The notes beneath the pieces were generated by a model, which was not told the DNA's origin, did no database searches, and was given only the letters and a program-made list of their open reading frames with translations. Shown here one piece after another: positions 23,543-53,550 of a stretch of 64,000 nt of DNA (the stretch's first letter is position 1; every line of letters starts with the position of its first letter). The DNA is from Longimicrobiales bacterium (GTDB lineage Bacteria; Gemmatimonadota; Gemmatimonadetes; Longimicrobiales; Gaopeijiaceae): positions 288,001 to 352,000 of the forward strand of contig CBDFMQ010000002.1 in NCBI GenBank assembly GCA_965249725.1, written 5' to 3'. The translations under genes and the position numbers were made by a program.

Positions 23543-24322
23543 CTACCCCCCCACCAGTGCCAACACCCTGAGCGGACTCCCGCTCCCGTCCACGATTTTC
23601 AGCGGCGCCGCCACGATGACCGATCCGGTCGCCGGTAGCTGATCCAGGTTACACAGGCTGGCCAAGCCGAGCTTGCCCGCGCCGTGCATGATCGTGTGGT
23701 TGGGGAAGGGTGGATCGAACCCTCCAGCCTGACCCGCGTCCGTCCCGATCGTCTCGACCCCGACTCCCGTCACGTCACGTTCGTAGGCCAGAAACTCGGA
23801 TCCCTCCTTGGCGAATCCGGGCGTATGGGGACCGTCGTCCGATACGTTCTGGAAGTCGGCCGGGTCGGTTCTCTTTCCCCACCCGGTCTGCAGAAGTACC
23901 CAGGCGCGTGCGGGGATCCGTCCGTTCTCCTGCTCCCAAGCTTCGATCCGAGCGGGAGTGAGCAGGAAGTCGGGGTCGTCGGCGACCTCCGCGGTGACGT
24001 CGATCACGCAGCCTGGACCCACAAACCGTCCCGCCGGCAGTGTGTCGCATGCATTGTTCGGCAGGTCCTTGCCGGTCACCCAATGAATCGGTGCGTCGAA
24101 GTGGGTGCCTGTATGCTCTCCTAGGGTGATCGTGTTCCAGTACCATGCCGGTCCGCGATCATCGTAACGCGAGATCAAGTCGATACTCACGCCGGGTGAC
24201 GGCGCAAAGATGTCGGGGAGCCCGATGACCGGAGTGTCCGGCCCAAGCGGCTGCGTGAGATCCACGACTCGGATCGCACCGGATGAGAGGCCCTCGGCGA
24301 GCTGCGTTAGGACTGAAGACAT
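23543..24322 (-). CDS. Cyclase family metal-dependent hydrolase (KynB/isatin hydrolase-like)
   Basis: EHTGTHFDAPIH, GVGVETIGTD and PLKIVDGSGSPLR motifs. Confidence 0.9.
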   Translation of the reverse strand: MSSVLTQLAEGLSSGAIRVVDLTQPLGPDTPVIGLPDIFAPSPGVSIDLISRYDDRGPAWYWNTITLGEHTGTHFDAPIHWVTGKDLPNNACDTLPAGRFVGPGCVIDVTAEVADDPDFLLTPARIEAWEQENGRIPARAWVLLQTGWGKRTDPADFQNVSDDGPHTPGFAKEGSEFLAYERDVTGVGVETIGTDAGQAGGFDPPFPNHTIMHGAGKLGLASLCNLDQLPATGSVIVAAPLKIVDGSGSPLRVLALVGG

Positions 24323-24592
24323 GATCGGTTTCCTTCTCTCGTTGCTGATCGGCAGGCGGGGCCCCGCAGATCGGGCGTGGGCGCTCGGGACGCACGTTCA
24401 CCCCGTGATGAGAGTCACTCACCGTACGGTCGGCCGCCGGTCGTTGCAAGCCTGATTGCAGGGCTGGCTGGGGGGTTCCGTGGGTGCCCAAGGCGCAGTC
24501 ATGAACACGCCCATCGAATCACCGGTCGCCCCCTCACCATCCCACCCAAGCCTGCGCGAAAGCGGGAGCCGGTGGATCCCGAGCGGGCCTGC

Positions 24593-24706
24593 TCGGGGAG
24601 CAGGTGCGCTACCCTCGCCCGAACCCGTCCGCCCGAAGCGCTGGTAGCGAAGCGGTGGTAGAGTAGCGGGGTTCGGGTGAGGGCGGCGCACCTAGCTCCC
24701 ATCACC
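24593..24706. repeat. Structured intergenic hairpin element, copy 1
   Basis: GGAGC-AGG/N16/GAAC...GTTC/N16'/CCTAGCTCC; shares ends and loop with 51205-51306 (opposite orientation). Confidence 0.85.
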
Positions 24707-24734
24707 CGGGTTGAGGCGATCCGCCGACTCCCAG

Positions 24735-42984: not shown

Positions 42985-43554
42985 ATGGGTTGTCTGGCCC
43001 TGAACGCGTCATACGAGCCGCTCACCATCATTCCGGCTCGCCGCGCCATTCGGTTGGTGCTCGATCGCAAAGCCGAGATCCTCGAGACGGACGAGGAGCG
43101 CGCCTTCCGGTCGCCGCGGAGGGACTTGCCGTTCCCGACCGTCATTCGGCTGGTTCGCTACGTCCATGTGCCGAGGCGATTCCGCCGGCAGGTCACCAAC
43201 ACCTTCCTGTTCGCGCGCGACAACTACCAATGTGGGTACTGCGGACGGCACCGCGGACAGCTCAAGGGTCGACAGTTCCTGACGCGGGACCACATCCTCC
43301 CCATCTCCCGCGGCGGGGACAACTCATGGAAGAACGTGGTGACGTCGTGTTCCCCGTGTAACAACCGAAAAGGGAATCGCGTGCCCCGAGAGGCGGGCAT
43401 GGCGCTCCTGGTTGAGCCTACCGAGCCGAACTATGTGCGCCTGGTTTGGACGGTCCGTCGCGTGACGGAGGCGCAGGCCAAGTACATTCGGATGTTCTAT
43501 GGGGAGGACGCGCTCTCGACGCTCAAGGCGGGGCGCATAAGAAGGAACGACTAG
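42985..43554 (+). CDS. HNH endonuclease (McrA/HNH_5-like, stand-alone)
   Basis: LNASYEPL, RD...C.YCG, DHILP.SRGG..SW.N...C..CN.RKG. Confidence 0.92.
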   Translation: MGCLALNASYEPLTIIPARRAIRLVLDRKAEILETDEERAFRSPRRDLPFPTVIRLVRYVHVPRRFRRQVTNTFLFARDNYQCGYCGRHRGQLKGRQFLTRDHILPISRGGDNSWKNVVTSCSPCNNRKGNRVPREAGMALLVEPTEPNYVRLVWTVRRVTEAQAKYIRMFYGEDALSTLKAGRIRRND

Positions 43555-48458: not shown

Positions 48459-49948
48459 CCGTCAATAGGAATCTGAGACCTTGGGTGCTGCTGCCGTGCC
48501 TTTTGTTGGCCGCGGGGTGTGGCGGGACGACCGAGGCCGATGAGGCTCCGACCGTCCAAAGCGCCGTGGTCGAGCGTGGCGACCTCAGGATTACCGCCGA
48601 GGCGACCGGCAACGTGGAGCCGGTCCGCAAAGTCGAGGTGAAATCCAAGGCGTCCGGCGAGATCCTACGCCTTCACGTCGACATCGGTGACGAGGTCCAA
48701 CCCGGAGCCCTACTTGCGGAGGTGGATCCCCGCGACGTCCGGAACGCATCGGACCAGGCCGAAGCCGACCTCGAGGTTGCTCAGGCCCGGCTCGACATCG
48801 CTCAGGCTCAGCTGACGCGCTCGGAGGGTCTGCTTGCCTCCGGCGTCATCTCGGTCCAGGAGCACGAGAGCAAGAACCTGGAGTACGCGAACTCCGTGGC
48901 GAATTTCGTGAAGGCCACGACCAACCATGAACTCGCGCAGCTCCGTCTCCAGGACGTGACGATACGGGCGCCCATGGCCGGAACCATCCTCGAGAAGAAC
49001 GTCGAGGAGGGTCAGGTCATCCAATCGGCTTCACAGAACGTGTCTGGCGGCACCGTGCTCTTGGTCATGGCGAATCTGGCCGAGATGCAGGTACGAACCC
49101 TCGTCGACGAGACGGACATGGGTGAGATCCGCGACGGCATGCACACGACCGTCACGGTGGAGGCCTACCCGGACCGTCCCTTCGTTGGAGAGGTCGAGAA
49201 GATCGAGCCCCAAGCCGTGGTCCAGCAGAACGTAACCATGTTTCCGGTCATCGTACGGCTCGACAACAGGTCTGGGCTCCTCAAGCCGGGGATGAACGCC
49301 GAGGTCGAGGTCGAGGTCGCTCAGGCGCCCTCGGTCCTGCTCATCCCGAACGCGGCGGTCGTCACCCCACAAGAGGCCGTCCCCGCGGGCATGGTCCTGG
49401 GCCTTGCTGAGGACGCGATCGACATGCGGAGTCTGTTTGCCGGCATGGGTGGTGGACGGGGCACAGGTGGTGGGCAGGGGAGGCCGGGCGCGAGAGCCGG
49501 AGGTGGAGGTCAGGCCGCATTCGACTCCATCCGAGCTCGGGTAGCCCGGGGAGAAATCTCCCAGGATTCGGCGAGAGCGATCATCCAGCGACAACGGGCG
49601 GGTTCGGGACAGGCCGACTCCGGCTCCGCCGGACGGGTTGTCGGCGCTGGGCGTCTGCCCGGAGATCCGACCCAGGCCGGCTCTGCGACAGCGGTGGAAT
49701 CCCGGCGTGCCGTCGTCTTCGTGATGGCCCAGGACGGGACGATCGAGCCCCGGGCCGTGATGATCGGGCTGAACGACTGGGACTTCACCCAGGTGGTGAG
49801 CGGAGTCGAAGAGGGCGAGCTGGTTGCGCTGATCGGTGCGGCCCAGCTCAGGGCGACGCAGGATGCGTTCCTCGAGCGGATTCGTTCCAGGTCCTCGCCG
49901 TTCGGCGGCGGCAGACCGGGTAGCGGCGGCGGTCGCGGGCCCCGGTAG
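48455..49948 (+). CDS. Efflux periplasmic adaptor (MacA/HlyD-like), lipoprotein
   Basis: AAGC lipobox; ATGNVEP, IRAPMAG, VDETD and LKPGMNA; Gly-rich insert. Confidence 0.9.
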
Positions 49949-49952
49949 AGCC

Positions 49953-51167
49953 ATGCTTATCCGAGAGATCATCTGGGTAGCGCTTGCCGCGGTCCGTGCG
50001 AACGCGCTGCGATCCTTTCTGACCACGCTGGGCATCATCATCGGCGTATCCGCCGTGATCGCTATGGTCGCGTTGGGTGAGGGCGCGCAGCGCCGCGTCG
50101 AGGATCAGATATCCAGAATGGGCACCAACGTGCTGACCATCAGTGCGGGGCAGCGGTACTTCGGAGGCGTCTCGACAGGTGATACGGAAGACCTCACCGT
50201 GGACGACGCCGAGGCGCTCCGGGACGAGAGCGGGGGGCTGCTGAGCATCTCCCCCATGATCAGTTCCCGAGTTCAGGTCGCTTATCTCCGTTGGAACTCG
50301 AACAACCAAGTCCGGGGGGTTTGGCCCGAGTACTTCGGTATGTACAACATGCATGTCGAACACGGTGAAGTGTTCAATCAGGGCCATGTTCAGGGCCGAC
50401 GCCGCGTGGCCATCTTGGGCTTCGCCGTTCCCGAATCATTGGGAACTCCGGCGTCCGTCCTCGTGGGCCAGACGATTCAGATACGCGGCCAGCCGTTCGA
50501 GGTTCTCGGGGTCATGGAAGAAAAGGGTGACGCCGGCTTCTTCCGCCCGGACGAGGAGGTGTTCATCCCCACCTCGACGGCTCAGTTCCGGGTGTTCGGC
50601 GGGCGCAATCGGCTCTCGTCGATCTACGCTCAAGTGCCCTCGACGGACGCGATGGACCGAGCCTTCGCCGAGATCGACCGCATCCTGCGTCGAGAGCACA
50701 AGGTCAAACCCGGTGAGAACACCGACTTCTCGATCAGGAATTCGAGCGATCTGGTGGCTACGTTCAACGAGACCACACAGACGTTCACGATGCTTCTCGC
50801 GGGCATCGCCGCCATCAGCCTCATCGTAGGCGGCATCGGCATCATGAACATCATGCTCGTCAGTGTGACCGAGCGGACACGCGAGATCGGCGTCCGGAAG
50901 GCACTCGGGGCCACCAGGAGGGCGATCCTCTTCCAGTTCCTCATCGAGGCCCTGGTACTGTGCGTCATGGGAGGGATTATGGGGGTGCTGGTGGGAGTGG
51001 GCGGGGCAGAGGCCCTGACGCGCTACGCCGACTGGGAGACCGTCGTCGCCGGAGAGTCCATCGCCATAGCTCTCGCATTCTCGGCCGGCATCGGGCTGTT
51101 CTTCGGGATCTGGCCCGCCCAGCGGGCGGCGAAACTCGATCCGATCGACGCCCTGCGCTACGAGTAA
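49953..51167 (+). CDS. ABC transporter permease (MacB/FtsX family)
   Basis: RS.LT.LGIIIGV, GGIGIMNIMLVSVTERTREIG and PA.RAAKLDPIDALRYE. Confidence 0.95.
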   Translation: MLIREIIWVALAAVRANALRSFLTTLGIIIGVSAVIAMVALGEGAQRRVEDQISRMGTNVLTISAGQRYFGGVSTGDTEDLTVDDAEALRDESGGLLSISPMISSRVQVAYLRWNSNNQVRGVWPEYFGMYNMHVEHGEVFNQGHVQGRRRVAILGFAVPESLGTPASVLVGQTIQIRGQPFEVLGVMEEKGDAGFFRPDEEVFIPTSTAQFRVFGGRNRLSSIYAQVPSTDAMDRAFAEIDRILRREHKVKPGENTDFSIRNSSDLVATFNETTQTFTMLLAGIAAISLIVGGIGIMNIMLVSVTERTREIGVRKALGATRRAILFQFLIEALVLCVMGGIMGVLVGVGGAEALTRYADWETVVAGESIAIALAFSAGIGLFFGIWPAQRAAKLDPIDALRYE

Positions 51168-51204
51168 AAGCGCGTCGCAGGGGGTGGAGGTCTCGGCTCT
51201 ACTT

Positions 51205-51306
51205 GGTGGTCGGAGCTAGGCGTTGGCACTGCGCCGGAACCCCGCTTCGCTACCACCGCTTCGCGGCGGACGAGTTCCAGCGCAGCGCCGACGCCTAGCT
51301 CCCCGA
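51205..51306. repeat. Structured intergenic hairpin element, copy 2
   Basis: GGAGCTAGG/N16/GAAC...GTTC/N16'/CCTAGCTCC between convergent genes; homologous to 24593-24706. Confidence 0.85.
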
Positions 51307-51400
51307 TCATTTTGGGGCCGAGGGACTCCAACCCCGGCGGACTTGTGGGGGGCTTGTTCAAGTAGGTAGCTGAGCGGCCCGCTAACGTCCTCCCCGCCGG

Positions 51401-52879
51401 TTACCGCGCCAGCGTCACCAGGAGTGGTTGGCCTTTGCGGATCAGCGACAGGATGGCGCTGCGTTCCCGGGCATAGGCTTCTTTGAGCGCGAGGCGGAAG
51501 GCTACCAGGCTCTCTACGTCGGTTTTCGCGACCCGGATGACCACGTCGCCTGGGATCAGGCCTGCTTCGAAGGCCGGCGTGTCTCTCAGTACGTCGATGA
51601 CCAGCACACCTCGGTCGGTCCCGAAGTACTCCGAGAGGCGAGGGTTCAGATCACTGAACTGTGCGCCTCCTACGAAGTTGCGACCGACCAGGCCTGCCGT
51701 GACAGGCCGGATCTGGACCACCCGAGTGGGCTCAGTGGCGGTGGTTCTGCGCTGTTGTTCCCGCTCTAGCCTCTCGAGGGAACCGACTTCGGCGAGCCTG
51801 GCCGCCGCCTGTGAGAGTTCCTCGGAAACGCGGTTGTTGTCGAACCTCAACCGATTGAGTCGGACATCCGTCTGACCGAGTTCTCGCGCTTGCTGCGTGA
51901 GGATCTCCACGATCTCCAGTTCCCTGATTCGTGTGGCCTCATGCAGTGTGTTCAACTCGATCCTCAGTCGGATGACCGTCGTCTTCAAGGAGTCGGCTTC
52001 CTGAGACGAGAGTAGGAGATACTCGAAGGGGAGTGCCGACTCCGCACTCATCACGACCGAGTAGCGACCGCCTGCTGCCACATTGGGAGTCAGTGGCATC
52101 GGCTCGGAACTCGACCAACCTCGCACCGAATCGCCTCCGAAGCTCCAGAGGAACCCACTCGGCCCGAGTTGGACCGAGATTTCGCCTCGGGCGGGCGGTT
52201 CCGGCGGCAACGGGAAGGCCACATCGGGGGGTGGTTCACCGGATCGGGAACTGACGCCGAAGGCCACCGCATTCCTTCTCGCTTGGTCGAGAATGCGGTA
52301 GGACGCCTCCTCCATCGAGTCTCCCGAAATGAGCAGCCGCACATGGTCTCGGCTCGCCCAGACGTTCCGTCCCGAAGCCAATCTCGCCTCGAACGACTCC
52401 CGTATGACGTCCAGCCGCTCCGACACGTCGGAGGGCAGCGTGAAGTCTGGGCGCACTCCTGCGGTGAGTGACACCTCACGAAGGCGGTCGTCGCCGCCCA
52501 TCACCCCCAGGCGGACCTCCTCACCGATGCCCAGATTACTCGTGAGCTTCTCCCAGGCCGGAAGCGTGAGCGGGGCCTGGCCGATCCGTTGGATCACGTC
52601 GCCCGGGACTATGCCGGCCCTCGCGGCCGGGCTGCCGTCCACGGTGCGCACCACCTGAATGACCGTTTCGCCGGGGCGGACACCGTCGCCCGCTACGCTG
52701 ATGTTGATGCTGATGCCCATCCACCCCCGGTCGGTACGCTCCACCGCGACCGTCGGACGAATCCGCGCCTGGACGCTCTCGGGTGTCCTGACCTGGGCCA
52801 GAGCCATCGAGGGGCCGAGAGCGATCCCCGCCGAGACTACGATCCAGGCGAACAGGGTCGAGGTGCGAGCGTGTAGCAT
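51401..52879 (-). CDS. Exported protein with two PDZ domains and a central coiled coil
   Basis: GWMGI...SPAARAGIVPGDVI and GVLV..V..TPA.EAGL.PGDVV; ALA signal; start ATG 52879. Confidence 0.8.
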   Translation of the reverse strand: MLHARTSTLFAWIVVSAGIALGPSMALAQVRTPESVQARIRPTVAVERTDRGWMGISINISVAGDGVRPGETVIQVVRTVDGSPAARAGIVPGDVIQRIGQAPLTLPAWEKLTSNLGIGEEVRLGVMGGDDRLREVSLTAGVRPDFTLPSDVSERLDVIRESFEARLASGRNVWASRDHVRLLISGDSMEEASYRILDQARRNAVAFGVSSRSGEPPPDVAFPLPPEPPARGEISVQLGPSGFLWSFGGDSVRGWSSSEPMPLTPNVAAGGRYSVVMSAESALPFEYLLLSSQEADSLKTTVIRLRIELNTLHEATRIRELEIVEILTQQARELGQTDVRLNRLRFDNNRVSEELSQAAARLAEVGSLERLEREQQRRTTATEPTRVVQIRPVTAGLVGRNFVGGAQFSDLNPRLSEYFGTDRGVLVIDVLRDTPAFEAGLIPGDVVIRVAKTDVESLVAFRLALKEAYARERSAILSLIRKGQPLLVTLAR

Positions 52880-53550
52880 CAGAACCAGTTGTCTCCACCG
52901 CTCACGGAAATCTGCCGGAGCGTCTCCTGCCGCTCGGCGAGAACGTTGACCAAGAAGCCGTTGAAGACCGGATCGGCCGGCGCGAGGCGCAGAGCTTCCT
53001 GGCTTGCGGCCAGCAACCCTTCGAGCGCCGCGACGCGGCTCAACGGATCCTCGAATCGTGTCTCGCCGTCTCCCCCTGCCAACTGCCGGAAACGCACCAG
53101 CGCTTGCATGTAGGTTTGTTCGGCGAACTGAACGGCCTGGGCCGCCTCGTCCGCGGTCGAGATTTGGGATACCGGGACCATCATGTTCTCGAGTGATAGC
53201 GGATCGGCCGCTCCGTCGTGAGTGGTGACGGCGAGACCGAATCCCGTCCCGCCGAGGAAGAGCACGGCCGCCGCCGCCCCTTGCATCCACGCCGGAGCCG
53301 CTGCTAACCCGAAGCGGCGAAAGCTCTCCTCGGTGCGAATCAGACCCTCGCTGACCAGACGCGCCTCCAGCGACTCCCAATCACCCGGGGGCGGACGCAG
53401 CGCCGCGAGTTCGCCCAGGCTCTCGGACTGGAGTCGATACGCCCGCAGTTCCTCGGCACACCCCGTGCACGAGTGCAGGTGTTCCCGTTCGTTCGGGTTG
53501 GGACGCTCGTCGACGAGACGGGCCAGGGTGTCGCTTGTCAGATGCTCCAT
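52879..53550 (-). CDS. Zinc-binding (ZAS) membrane anti-sigma factor
   Basis: EHLHSCTGC (HxxxCxxC); one TM; overlaps the ECF gene. Confidence 0.82.
   Translation of the reverse strand: MEHLTSDTLARLVDERPNPNEREHLHSCTGCAEELRAYRLQSESLGELAALRPPPGDWESLEARLVSEGLIRTEESFRRFGLAAAPAWMQGAAAAVLFLGGTGFGLAVTTHDGAADPLSLENMMVPVSQISTADEAAQAVQFAEQTYMQALVRFRQLAGGDGETRFEDPLSRVAALEGLLAASQEALRLAPADPVFNGFLVNVLAERQETLRQISVSGGDNWF

What the first reader, a model, noticed from the sequence alone, without database searches (positions are those of the whole stretch)
24593..24706. Unrecognised structured repeat/ncRNA family: conserved ends and loop, completely exchanged 16-bp stem
Seen: copy 1 (+) TCGG GGAGC-AGG tgcgctaccctcgccc GAAC CCGTCCGCC CGAAGCGC TGGTAGCGAAGCGG TGGTAGAGTAGCGGG GTTC gggtgagggcggcgca CCTAGCTCC CATCACC. 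Copy 2 (reverse complement of 51205-51306) TCGG GGAGCTAGG cgtcggcgctgcgctg GAAC TCGTCCGCC GCGAAGCGG TGGTAGCGAAGCGGG GTTC cggcgcagtgccaacg CCTAGCTCC GACCACC. The lower-case arms differ in sequence yet are both 16 nt and pair 15/16 (two G-T, one mismatch) in this orientation. Inference: selection on single-stranded structure and stem length, as in an ncRNA or an ssDNA hairpin substrate for a recombinase or HUH transposase (analogous to attC or REP sites, but matching neither consensus as I know them).
Basis: partly seen in the sequence, partly recalled or inferred. Interest (0 to 1): 0.8.

Follow-up and report, generated by a model that had tools for sequence, protein, structure and literature searches.

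The report
T-shaped DNA repeats at stop codons
The two hairpins are copies of an apparently undescribed family of repeated DNA elements in one group of uncultured bacteria; each folds one DNA strand into a long, freely changing stem capped by two tiny ultra-stable loops, usually sits right behind a gene's stop codon, and spreads by an enzyme that could not be identified.

Summary
They belong to a dispersed repeat family of Longimicrobiales: 6 copies in this genome, 45 model hits in G011, 22 of 150 family genomes, none in 140 other phylum genomes. The 16-bp length and the 'conserved ends' belong to this pair only. What the family keeps is a T-shaped fold: a 17-28-bp stem of any sequence topped by two C-GNA-G mini-hairpins, a motif stable in DNA and weak in RNA. 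That strand is the template strand of a gene whose stop codon it abuts (82 of 107). Young copies form mosaic pairs and fill sites that are empty in relatives. Old copies behind tuf, rpoC, secA, dnaK and macB keep the cap (0-4 differences in 41-43 nt; silent sites differ 30-50%) while the stem turns over by paired changes. No Rfam, REP, attC or Ssn match; no Y1 transposase in 20 of 22 carriers. Best reading: a REP/BIME-like single-stranded-DNA element with an unknown mobiliser, partly retained by the host. The scan had not noted this sequence; it noted similar designs in other taxa.

The parts
24541..24734 (+). Copy 1, whole element (~194 bp); the folded (GNA-loop) strand is +
   Evidence: model hit 24594-24699, 28.8 bits, E 2e-4
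24541..24552 (+). Upstream motif (CCGCC-AAGCC type) shared across the family, ~85-95 nt before the cap
   Evidence: 57 of 111 elements vs 5.6% of random windows
24564..24578 (+). Copy 1 outer stem, 5' arm
   Evidence: folds with 24718-24732
24596..24626 (+).
24627..24668 (+). Copy 1 cap: twin GNA mini-hairpins with a 13-nt near-duplication; base 24662 reads C in public contigs
24669..24700 (+). Copy 1 long stem, 3' arm
24718..24732 (+). Copy 1 outer stem, 3' arm, ending 2 nt from the nfuA stop codon
24735..25358 (-). nfuA-like gene (NifU + Fe-S_biosyn domains) whose stop codon abuts copy 1; host gene, not part of the element
23543..24322 (-). Cyclase-family gene on the far side of copy 1; host gene
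51168..51358 (-). Copy 2, whole element (~191 bp); the folded strand is -
   Evidence: model hit 51212-51304, 63.3 bits, E 3e-13
51272..51302 (-).
51243..51271 (-). Copy 2 cap: 7-bp hairpin and 2-bp hairpin, both with GAA loops closed by C-G
51212..51242 (-). Copy 2 long stem, 3' arm
49836..51167 (+). MacB-like permease gene whose stop codon abuts copy 2; host gene
51401..53380 (-). PDZ-domain gene converging on copy 2; host gene

Best explanation
A lineage-specific, non-coding, dispersed palindromic DNA element that works like REP/BIME/REPIN repeats but is not one of them. SHOWN: one strand folds into a T shape, a long stem of arbitrary sequence topped by two C-GNA-G mini-hairpins; it has been copied to many sites; its 3' end usually lies at a stop codon on the gene's template strand; old copies keep the cap and the pairing. 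INFERRED (about 0.75): the fold is read as single-stranded DNA, not RNA. INFERRED (about 0.5): a trans-acting ssDNA nick-and-join enzyme recognises the cap and the shape of the stem, not its sequence, and joins the 3' end to new sites without a target duplication; ends come to rest at stop codons because joins or deletions further in destroy the gene. The enzyme is not a recognisable Y1 transposase or Ssn nuclease and was not found. INFERRED (about 0.5): copies behind strongly transcribed genes are kept because the cap binds a host protein, with the mirror RNA hairpin protecting the mRNA 3' end as a by-product.
For: Family and spread: 106 distinct elements from genome and metagenome scans; model hits in 22 of 150 family genomes, 12 of 81 genera, 45 in G011, 11 in G002; six copies in this genome with mutually unrelated arms. 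Mobility: the dnaN-pyrE site holds a ~405-bp inverted pair from stop codon to stop codon in G011 and nothing of it in 5 of 5 other genomes compared, with no visible target duplication; chimeric arms and duplicated 3' arms. Fold: 704 of 750 arm pairs Watson-Crick in 33 non-redundant elements; hairpin 1 paired in 99.5% of cells with G-C/C-G and T-A/C-G swaps and a G-T pair in 20 of 30 sequences, which fixes the strand; in subfamily A, 36 G-T vs 5 A-C departures and 15 double changes in 36 copies. DNA signature: 52 of 58 loops in the variant that my patterns could not retrieve are GNA and all 58 are closed by C-G (reversed rows turned by me); the family uses GC-GNA-GC and CC-GNA-GG, the two stems that PMC13037366 section 8 names as forming the mini-hairpin, with only GNA among 64 triloops and a much weaker RNA counterpart. 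Polarity: 82 of 107 elements (68 vs 24 after merging same genes) have a converging gene's stop at a median 78.5 nt from the cap; no bias on the other side (57 vs 46); 14 of 21 free subfamily-A ends lie within -2 to +5 nt of an in-frame stop. Retention: orthologous caps differ at 0, 1, 4, 2 and 3 of 41-43 nt while four-fold sites differ 30-50%; macB arms show 9 and 13 doubly changed pairs, 8 and 13 still paired.
Against: No mobilising enzyme: Y1 transposase in 6 of 150 family genomes and 2 of 22 carriers, no element beside it; Y2 elements in G011 have unrelated ends; GIY-YIG matches are long proteins; 150 of 173 neighbour proteins scanned show housekeeping genes, with one integrase, one rve-type and no recurring nuclease. 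No replichore bias, unlike lagging-strand HUH elements: 2 of 6 copies here carry the folded strand as leading-strand sequence, 4 as lagging (from local skew); orientations in G011 are mixed. G-T over A-C is absent in the non-redundant arms (18 vs 13) and in subfamily B (14 vs 10); by distinct change types subfamily A gives only 13 vs 4 (p=0.049). 6 of 58 loops are not GNA, and the rpoC copies of three species carry AAC. 25 of 107 elements have the other orientation. Most loci were retrieved by a pattern that contains the cap, and kin are not independent. Copy 1 is missing in G001, so single copies are dispensable.
Confidence: 0.6

Rival explanations
1. A structured RNA module: either a 3'-UTR hairpin that protects or regulates the upstream mRNA (as for REP and ERIC), or a small antisense RNA made from the GNA strand, spread as a passive repeat.
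For: Position right after stop codons of highly expressed genes; long-term conservation with paired changes; both strands fold well as RNA; REPs within 15 nt of a stop can affect translation (PMC12306157 passages); ERIC effects depend on orientation (PMC2229807).
Against: The strand whose wobble pairs work is antisense to the adjoining mRNA in 82 of 107 cases; in the mRNA the loops read UNC, with no known RNA rationale, and the stem symmetry excludes the cUUCGg register (read); old arms lack the G-U excess typical of RNA stems; no sigma-70 promoter or terminator match at either copy (weak test in this phylum).
Confidence: 0.2
2. An attC-like site gone free-living: folded bottom-strand substrates of an integron-type tyrosine recombinase that have been attached behind chromosomal genes.
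For: Same polarity as attC (folded bottom strand directly behind an ORF; attC is read by structure, 10.1101/2022.09.11.507474 passages). The attC-like array in this genome (C3 ~2281.7-2288k) also carries twin GNA mini-hairpins on its bottom strand. Variable stem with fixed unpaired features.
Against: Only 10 of 116 elements have a complementary AAC..GTT pair around the cap; in the window copies it lies at the top of the stem with no room for an L box; no arrays, no adjacent integrase; the model does not hit the array sites (5 hits in G000, none there).
Confidence: 0.1
3. Neutral selfish or relic repeats whose arms stay paired only because template switching or hairpin mismatch repair copies one arm onto the other; no present function.
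For: Near-perfect Watson-Crick arms; many double changes in young copies; loss of copy 1 in G001; patchy distribution.
Against: Arm copying cannot explain why the unpaired and asymmetric cap is nearly invariant at orthologous sites while silent sites differ 30-50%; gene conversion from other copies is unlikely to explain it, since caps differ between sites in one genome.
Confidence: 0.07
4. A classical MITE moved by a DDE transposase.
For: Size 100-200 bp, long stem-loop, filled and empty sites as in ERIC, RUP, YPAL (PMC2229807); subfamily A has a short ATGAC..GTCAT inverted end.
Against: No shared terminal repeat across the family, outer ends of the B-A pair are unlike each other, no target duplication at the one clean filled/empty site, ragged 5' ends and mosaics.
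Confidence: 0.03

Closest known systems
REP / BIME / REPIN elements mobilised by RAYT (TnpA-REP) (PMC3733652 passages, PMC6006769 part 1)
   Same: Extragenic, GC-rich, mostly downstream of genes, inverted pairs and mosaics, structured single strand, patchy copy number between kin.
   Different: About 190 bp with a 17-28-bp variable stem and a branched twin-GNA cap instead of a 20-40-bp hairpin; no unpaired GTAG/CGTC tag at the stem foot; no RAYT gene; strong one-way polarity to the stop codon.
NTS/SRM hairpins of the Ssn GIY-YIG nucleases (PMC11893778 passages)
   Same: Oriented ssDNA hairpin repeats; the junction of the B-A pair shares a 9-nt GTCATTCCC string with the start of NTS.
   Different: 0 of 116 elements match the published SRM pattern; no small GIY-YIG gene in carriers.
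Integron attC sites
   Same: Folded bottom strand directly behind an ORF, read by shape; this genome's attC-like sites have a similar twin-GNA cap.
   Different: No conserved R/L boxes, no arrays, no integrase, flanked by core genes.
TwoAYGGAY motif (Rfam RF01731; name seen in a table of PMC2864571; architecture taken from earlier AI notes)
   Same: Two small hairpins on a long variable stem, dispersed.
   Different: No Rfam match; loops are GNA on the antisense strand, not GGA loops.
ERIC/IRU, YPAL, RPE, CIR bacterial mini-elements (PMC2229807 parts 1-2)
   Same: 100-200-bp long stem-loops between genes, orientation effects, no encoded enzyme.
   Different: No TA ends, terminal repeats, target duplication or GANTC site seen; stems not conserved in sequence.
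DNA mini-hairpins at phage G4/St-1 priming origins, ssiA and N4 promoters (PMC13037366 passages, section 8); E. coli RRS (PMC10592627 passages)
   Same: Same GCGNAGC, CCGAAGG and GCGTTAGC motifs as ssDNA signals; RRS is a conserved, host-kept ssDNA structure.
   Different: Here two mini-hairpins cap a chromosomal repeat; no replichore bias as in RRS.

Membership tests
REP/BIME/REPIN (RAYT-mobilised) | 20-40-bp hairpin with an unpaired GTAG or CGTC tag at its foot | tested here: not met
   Alignment A1 and folds: GTAG occurs only inside paired stems; unit is ~95-190 bp
REP/BIME/REPIN (RAYT-mobilised) | Cognate Y1/RAYT gene flanked by the repeats | tested here: not met
   PF01797 in 6 of 150 family genomes, 2 of 22 carriers; no model hit in the 8 loci
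REP/BIME/REPIN (RAYT-mobilised) | Extragenic, dispersed, inverted pairs and mosaics downstream of genes | tested here: met
REP/BIME/REPIN (RAYT-mobilised) | Cleavage and rejoining of the folded strand by a HUH enzyme | not testable with these tools
   needs biochemistry
NTS/SRM-Ssn | SRM consensus hairpin | tested here: not met
   0 of 116 elements (pattern)
NTS/SRM-Ssn | Small single-domain GIY-YIG gene flanked by repeats | tested here: not met
   10 matches in 5 carrier genomes all in frames of 409 aa or more; 22 matches in 150 genomes at E<=1e-9, none short in a carrier
Integron attC | RYYYAAC...GTTRRRY boxes closing the hairpin, inner L boxes with extrahelical bases | tested here: not met
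   complementary AAC..GTT 7-mers in 10 of 116; L boxes not seen in A1
Integron attC | Folded bottom strand directly downstream of an ORF | tested here: met
   82 of 107; strand from wobble pairs
Integron attC | Arrays of cassettes beside intI | tested here: not met
   neighbours are core genes
MITE (DDE-mobilised) | Terminal inverted repeats and target-site duplication | tested here: not met
   one clean filled/empty site, no duplication; ends not shared family-wide
IS91/rolling-circle mini-element | Ends matching those of a Y2 element of the same genome | tested here: not met
Known ncRNA (Rfam, incl. 6S, SRP, TwoAYGGAY) | Covariance-model match | tested here: not met
   0 matches in the window; only sub-threshold miRNA-hairpin scores over elements in 10 loci; SRP lies elsewhere; 6S model finds nothing in the genome, but rings in only 5 of 14 controls
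Known ncRNA (Rfam, incl. 6S, SRP, TwoAYGGAY) | Discrete transcript | not testable with these tools
   needs stranded RNA reads of a carrier
d(GNA) DNA mini-hairpin | GNA triloop closed by C-G on a GC-GC or CC-GG stem | tested here: met
   122 of 128 arm-anchored loops, 52 of 58 in the pattern-independent variant; rule from PMC13037366 section 8

The most novel reading that the evidence does not exclude
These are substrates of an undescribed single-stranded-DNA recombination system that reads a twin-GNA T-junction regardless of stem sequence and attaches it to the stop codon of expressed chromosomal genes on the template strand. That is the geometry of an integron cassette end, and the attC-like sites of the same genome carry the same kind of cap, so the family could be a living example of how folded recombination sites get appended to genes, or a host-domesticated ssDNA signal (for priming, SSB exclusion or R-loop control) at the ends of highly transcribed genes.
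Probability: 0.13. Interest if true: 0.85.

Novelty: new variant of a known kind. Interest (0 to 1): 0.52.

Why it matters
Dispersed bacterial palindromes are tied to two known enzyme classes (RAYT, Ssn), and several families have no known mover. This family adds a clean case with an unusual design: sequence-free stem, branched cap that obeys the DNA mini-hairpin rule, one-way placement at stop codons, recent expansion in a complete genome without Y1 or Ssn genes, and purifying selection on old copies. It gives a defined bait (the folded cap) to find a new ssDNA-processing enzyme or host binder, and a testable parallel to the placement of attC sites behind cassette genes. If the mover proves to be a diverged HUH enzyme, it is one more REP-like family.

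Tried and rejected
Copy-2 cap with 3 mismatches in 251 order genomes: own genome only. Viral contigs: 0. An 18-nt end motif in genome contigs gave 119+ hits across many phyla that look like chance coding matches; not used. One non-Gemmatimonadota cap match (L102) has no arms and lies in an ORF: treated as chance. 6S and SRP readings rejected (copy numbers). Idea that arms are inverted copies of the target flank: subfamily arms are the same at many unrelated sites, so rejected as a general rule, although some outer stems reach over the stop codon. Intrinsic terminator: no match at either copy. Replication-strand targeting: no bias. Y1, Y2, GIY-YIG partners: none. The HNH gene between the copies (42985-43554) was not tested further; it is not adjacent to a copy. 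Sequencing runs: no RNA holder listed; run X17 does not cover the element; no joint skipping the element in the 4 runs. Census caught 6 reversed rows and missed some stems; one search replaced it. Literature: searches listed no paper on this family; the library lacks most subscription papers, I read no supplements, and the figure-borne consensus lists of PMC3733652 (TIR families) and the supplement motif catalogues of PMC2864571 and PMC5737381 were not seen and could hold a related motif.

Full report
Observation. Folding is far beyond shuffles as RNA and as DNA, on either strand. Rfam has no match. Sister genomes are titled Longimicrobiales, phylum Gemmatimonadota. Copy 1 lies between an nfuA-like gene and a cyclase gene; copy 2 lies between converging macB-like and PDZ genes.

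The true unit. Orthologues in G001 and G002 keep the central ~40 nt but have different stems, including different outer ends. The conserved part is therefore the cap, not the ends. A hairpin survey and a relaxed search found six copies in this genome, behind nfuA, macB, dnaK, secA, tuf and rpoC, with mutually unrelated arms. Each window copy extends to about 190 bp, with an outer stem and an upstream motif found in 57 of 111 elements against 5.6% of random windows. Public contigs from three studies read C at window 24662, restoring a mini-hairpin in copy 1.

Distribution. The cap pattern gave 44 loci in genome contigs, 43 of them titled Gemmatimonadota, 59 in metagenomes, 2 with the T variant and 0 in viral contigs; 106 distinct elements. 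A covariance model from 30 diverse copies (these match by construction) hit 22 of 150 family genomes in 12 of 81 genera, none of 140 other genomes drawn from the phylum, with 45 hits in G011, 11 in G002, 4 in G001 and 5 in G000; copy 1 scores weakly. More distant copies replace the whole stem of hairpin 1 but keep the architecture.

Structure and strand. The fold is a long stem (10-28 bp, median 24; 704 of 750 pairs Watson-Crick in 33 non-redundant elements), usually a purine-rich internal loop and short neck, then a three-way junction with two mini-hairpins. Hairpin 1 is paired in 99.5% of cells, with G-C/C-G and T-A/C-G swaps and a G-T pair in 20 of 30 rows; the retrieval pattern limited the letters there but did not force pairing. 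In subfamily A, departures from the consensus are 36 G-T, 5 A-C and 15 double changes in 36 copies (13 vs 4 by distinct types, p=0.049). Against this, subfamily B gives 14 vs 10 and the old arms 18 vs 13. Loops found by anchoring on the arms are GNA in 122 of 128, and 52 of 58 in the long-stem variant that my patterns could not have retrieved; all of these 58 are closed by C-G (reversed rows turned by me). PMC13037366 (passages and section 8) reports that only GNA of 64 triloops forms the mini-hairpin, that GC-GC and CC-GG stems are the accepted ones, that the RNA counterpart of the four-base-loop form melts at 39 C against 76.5 C, and that SSB binds such tandem hairpins poorly. The family uses exactly these two stems, and the tuf copy here uses GCGTTAGC, also listed there. 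I infer that the functional form is single-stranded DNA.

Placement. In 82 of 107 elements with a gene called on the 3' side, that gene converges on the element, its stop a median 78.5 nt from the cap, about the length of the element's 3' part; after merging same genes 68 vs 24 (kin not independent). The other side shows no bias (57 vs 46). The folded strand is thus the template strand of the adjoining gene. Of 31 intact subfamily-A ends, 10 join another copy and 14 of the other 21 lie within -2 to +5 nt of an in-frame stop, some supplying the stop themselves (about nine distinct genes). There is no replichore bias and no promoter or terminator match at the window copies.

Mobility. G011 and kin carry young subfamilies A (43) and B (27), often as an inverted B-A pair, with chimeric arms and duplicated 3' arms. 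The dnaN-pyrE site holds a ~405-bp pair from stop to stop in G011 and no element in G314, G327, G000, G002 or G309; no target duplication or old spacer is visible. The nfuA site is filled in G000 and G002, empty in G001, and holds an unrelated-arm copy in the opposite orientation in L152. No mover was found: Y1 transposase in 2 of 22 carriers and never beside a copy; the Y2 elements of G011 have unrelated ends; no small GIY-YIG; 150 of 173 representative neighbour proteins scanned show core genes and no recurring nuclease.

Retention. Orthologous caps plus neck differ at 0 of 42 (secA), 1 and 4 of 41 (macB), 2 and 3 of 43 (tuf), while four-fold sites of the adjoining genes differ at 30-50%; macB arms differ at 22 and 29 of 48 positions, with 9 and 13 doubly changed pairs of which 8 and 13 still pair. 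Resident copies are therefore under selection for the cap sequence and for stem pairing. Arm-copying repair may add to the pairing but cannot explain the cap.

Mechanism. Most likely: a REP/BIME-like element read as folded ssDNA through its cap, spread in trans by an unidentified nick-and-join enzyme, coming to rest at stop codons, and kept behind strongly transcribed genes by a host role. The fold, strand, spread, placement and selection are shown; the DNA-level reading is a strong inference; the enzyme and the host role are guesses. Rivals: an RNA module (0.2), a free-living attC-like site (0.1), neutral relics (0.07), a DDE MITE (0.03).

Comparison. It works like REP/BIME/REPIN (PMC3733652, 12 passages; PMC6006769, part 1 of 10) but fails the tag and RAYT tests. 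It fails the SRM pattern and Ssn gene tests (PMC11893778, 12 passages). It shares position and strand with attC (10.1101/2022.09.11.507474, 12 passages), and the attC-like array of this genome has twin GNA caps on its bottom strand, but the R boxes are missing in 106 of 116 elements. PMC5737381 (4 passages) notes that branched ssDNA attC-like structures would be rare. ERIC, YPAL, RPE and CIR differ in ends and architecture (PMC2229807, parts 1-2 of 3). TwoAYGGAY was seen only as a table entry (PMC2864571, 3 passages); its two-hairpin architecture comes from earlier AI notes. RRS is a host-kept ssDNA structure with a replichore rule that this family lacks (PMC10592627, 12 passages). REP effects near stop codons come from PMC12306157 (6 passages). 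Ten searches listed no description of this family; supplements and figures were not seen. Gene names such as nfuA, secA, dnaK, tuf, rpoC, dnaN and pyrE rest on Pfam hits or on my recognition of printed translations.

Verdict. Real, undescribed as far as searched, a new variant of a known kind. Interest 0.52. The boldest reading not excluded, a new ssDNA system that appends structure-read sites to stop codons in attC geometry, has probability about 0.13 and would merit 0.85.

Noticed in passing
window 24662: Window has A; contigs of three runs from three studies read C. Possible assembly error or strain variant.
   Followed up: partly
G000:C3:2281700-2288100 and C1:101150-101290: attC-like array whose bottom strand carries twin GNA mini-hairpins, next to a truncated tyrosine recombinase at C3:2292816-2293238; a solo site on C1 has GAC..GTC in place of AAC..GTT ends, like the ends of subfamily A.
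   Followed up: partly
L174, L177, L180, L182 (G011) and L173 (G314): Seven near-identical ~2.5-kb elements in G011 encoding a tyrosine recombinase plus an IS91-type Y2 transposase; the four inspected end at GTTRRRY-like sites, suggesting insertion at integron-type sites.
   Followed up: no
G000:C3:1085516-1085612: 31-bp inverted copy of what looks like the tmRNA 3' end (recognised from memory) folding back over a terminator-like hairpin.
   Followed up: no
G000:C3:2182031-2182195 and 1456787-1456952: Two ~165-bp CTAG-ended elements with 26-29-bp terminal inverted repeats, a separate MITE-like family.
   Followed up: no
G000:C3:1477071-1477345, 385930-386091, 2416594-2416736: Other long intergenic hairpins with unrelated loops, one nested, each after a gene end.
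   Followed up: no
window 42985-43554: Stand-alone HNH endonuclease gene after priA, between the two copies.
   Followed up: no
G001:C5:119000-148000: Second, more diverged copy of the nfuA and macB regions in G001, probably a contaminating contig; its macB site holds a three-hairpin variant of the element.
   Followed up: no
L025 near 4630, L037, L038, L115: AT-rich palindromes built on TATACGTATA just beyond the far end of elements in G002 and genus g15; operator-like.
   Followed up: no
L384, L385 (G002): Identical elements behind both tuf genes, consistent with gene conversion running past the stop codon.
   Followed up: no
G000 whole genome: No 6S RNA match at E<=1 (model rings in 5 of 14 controls).
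   Followed up: no
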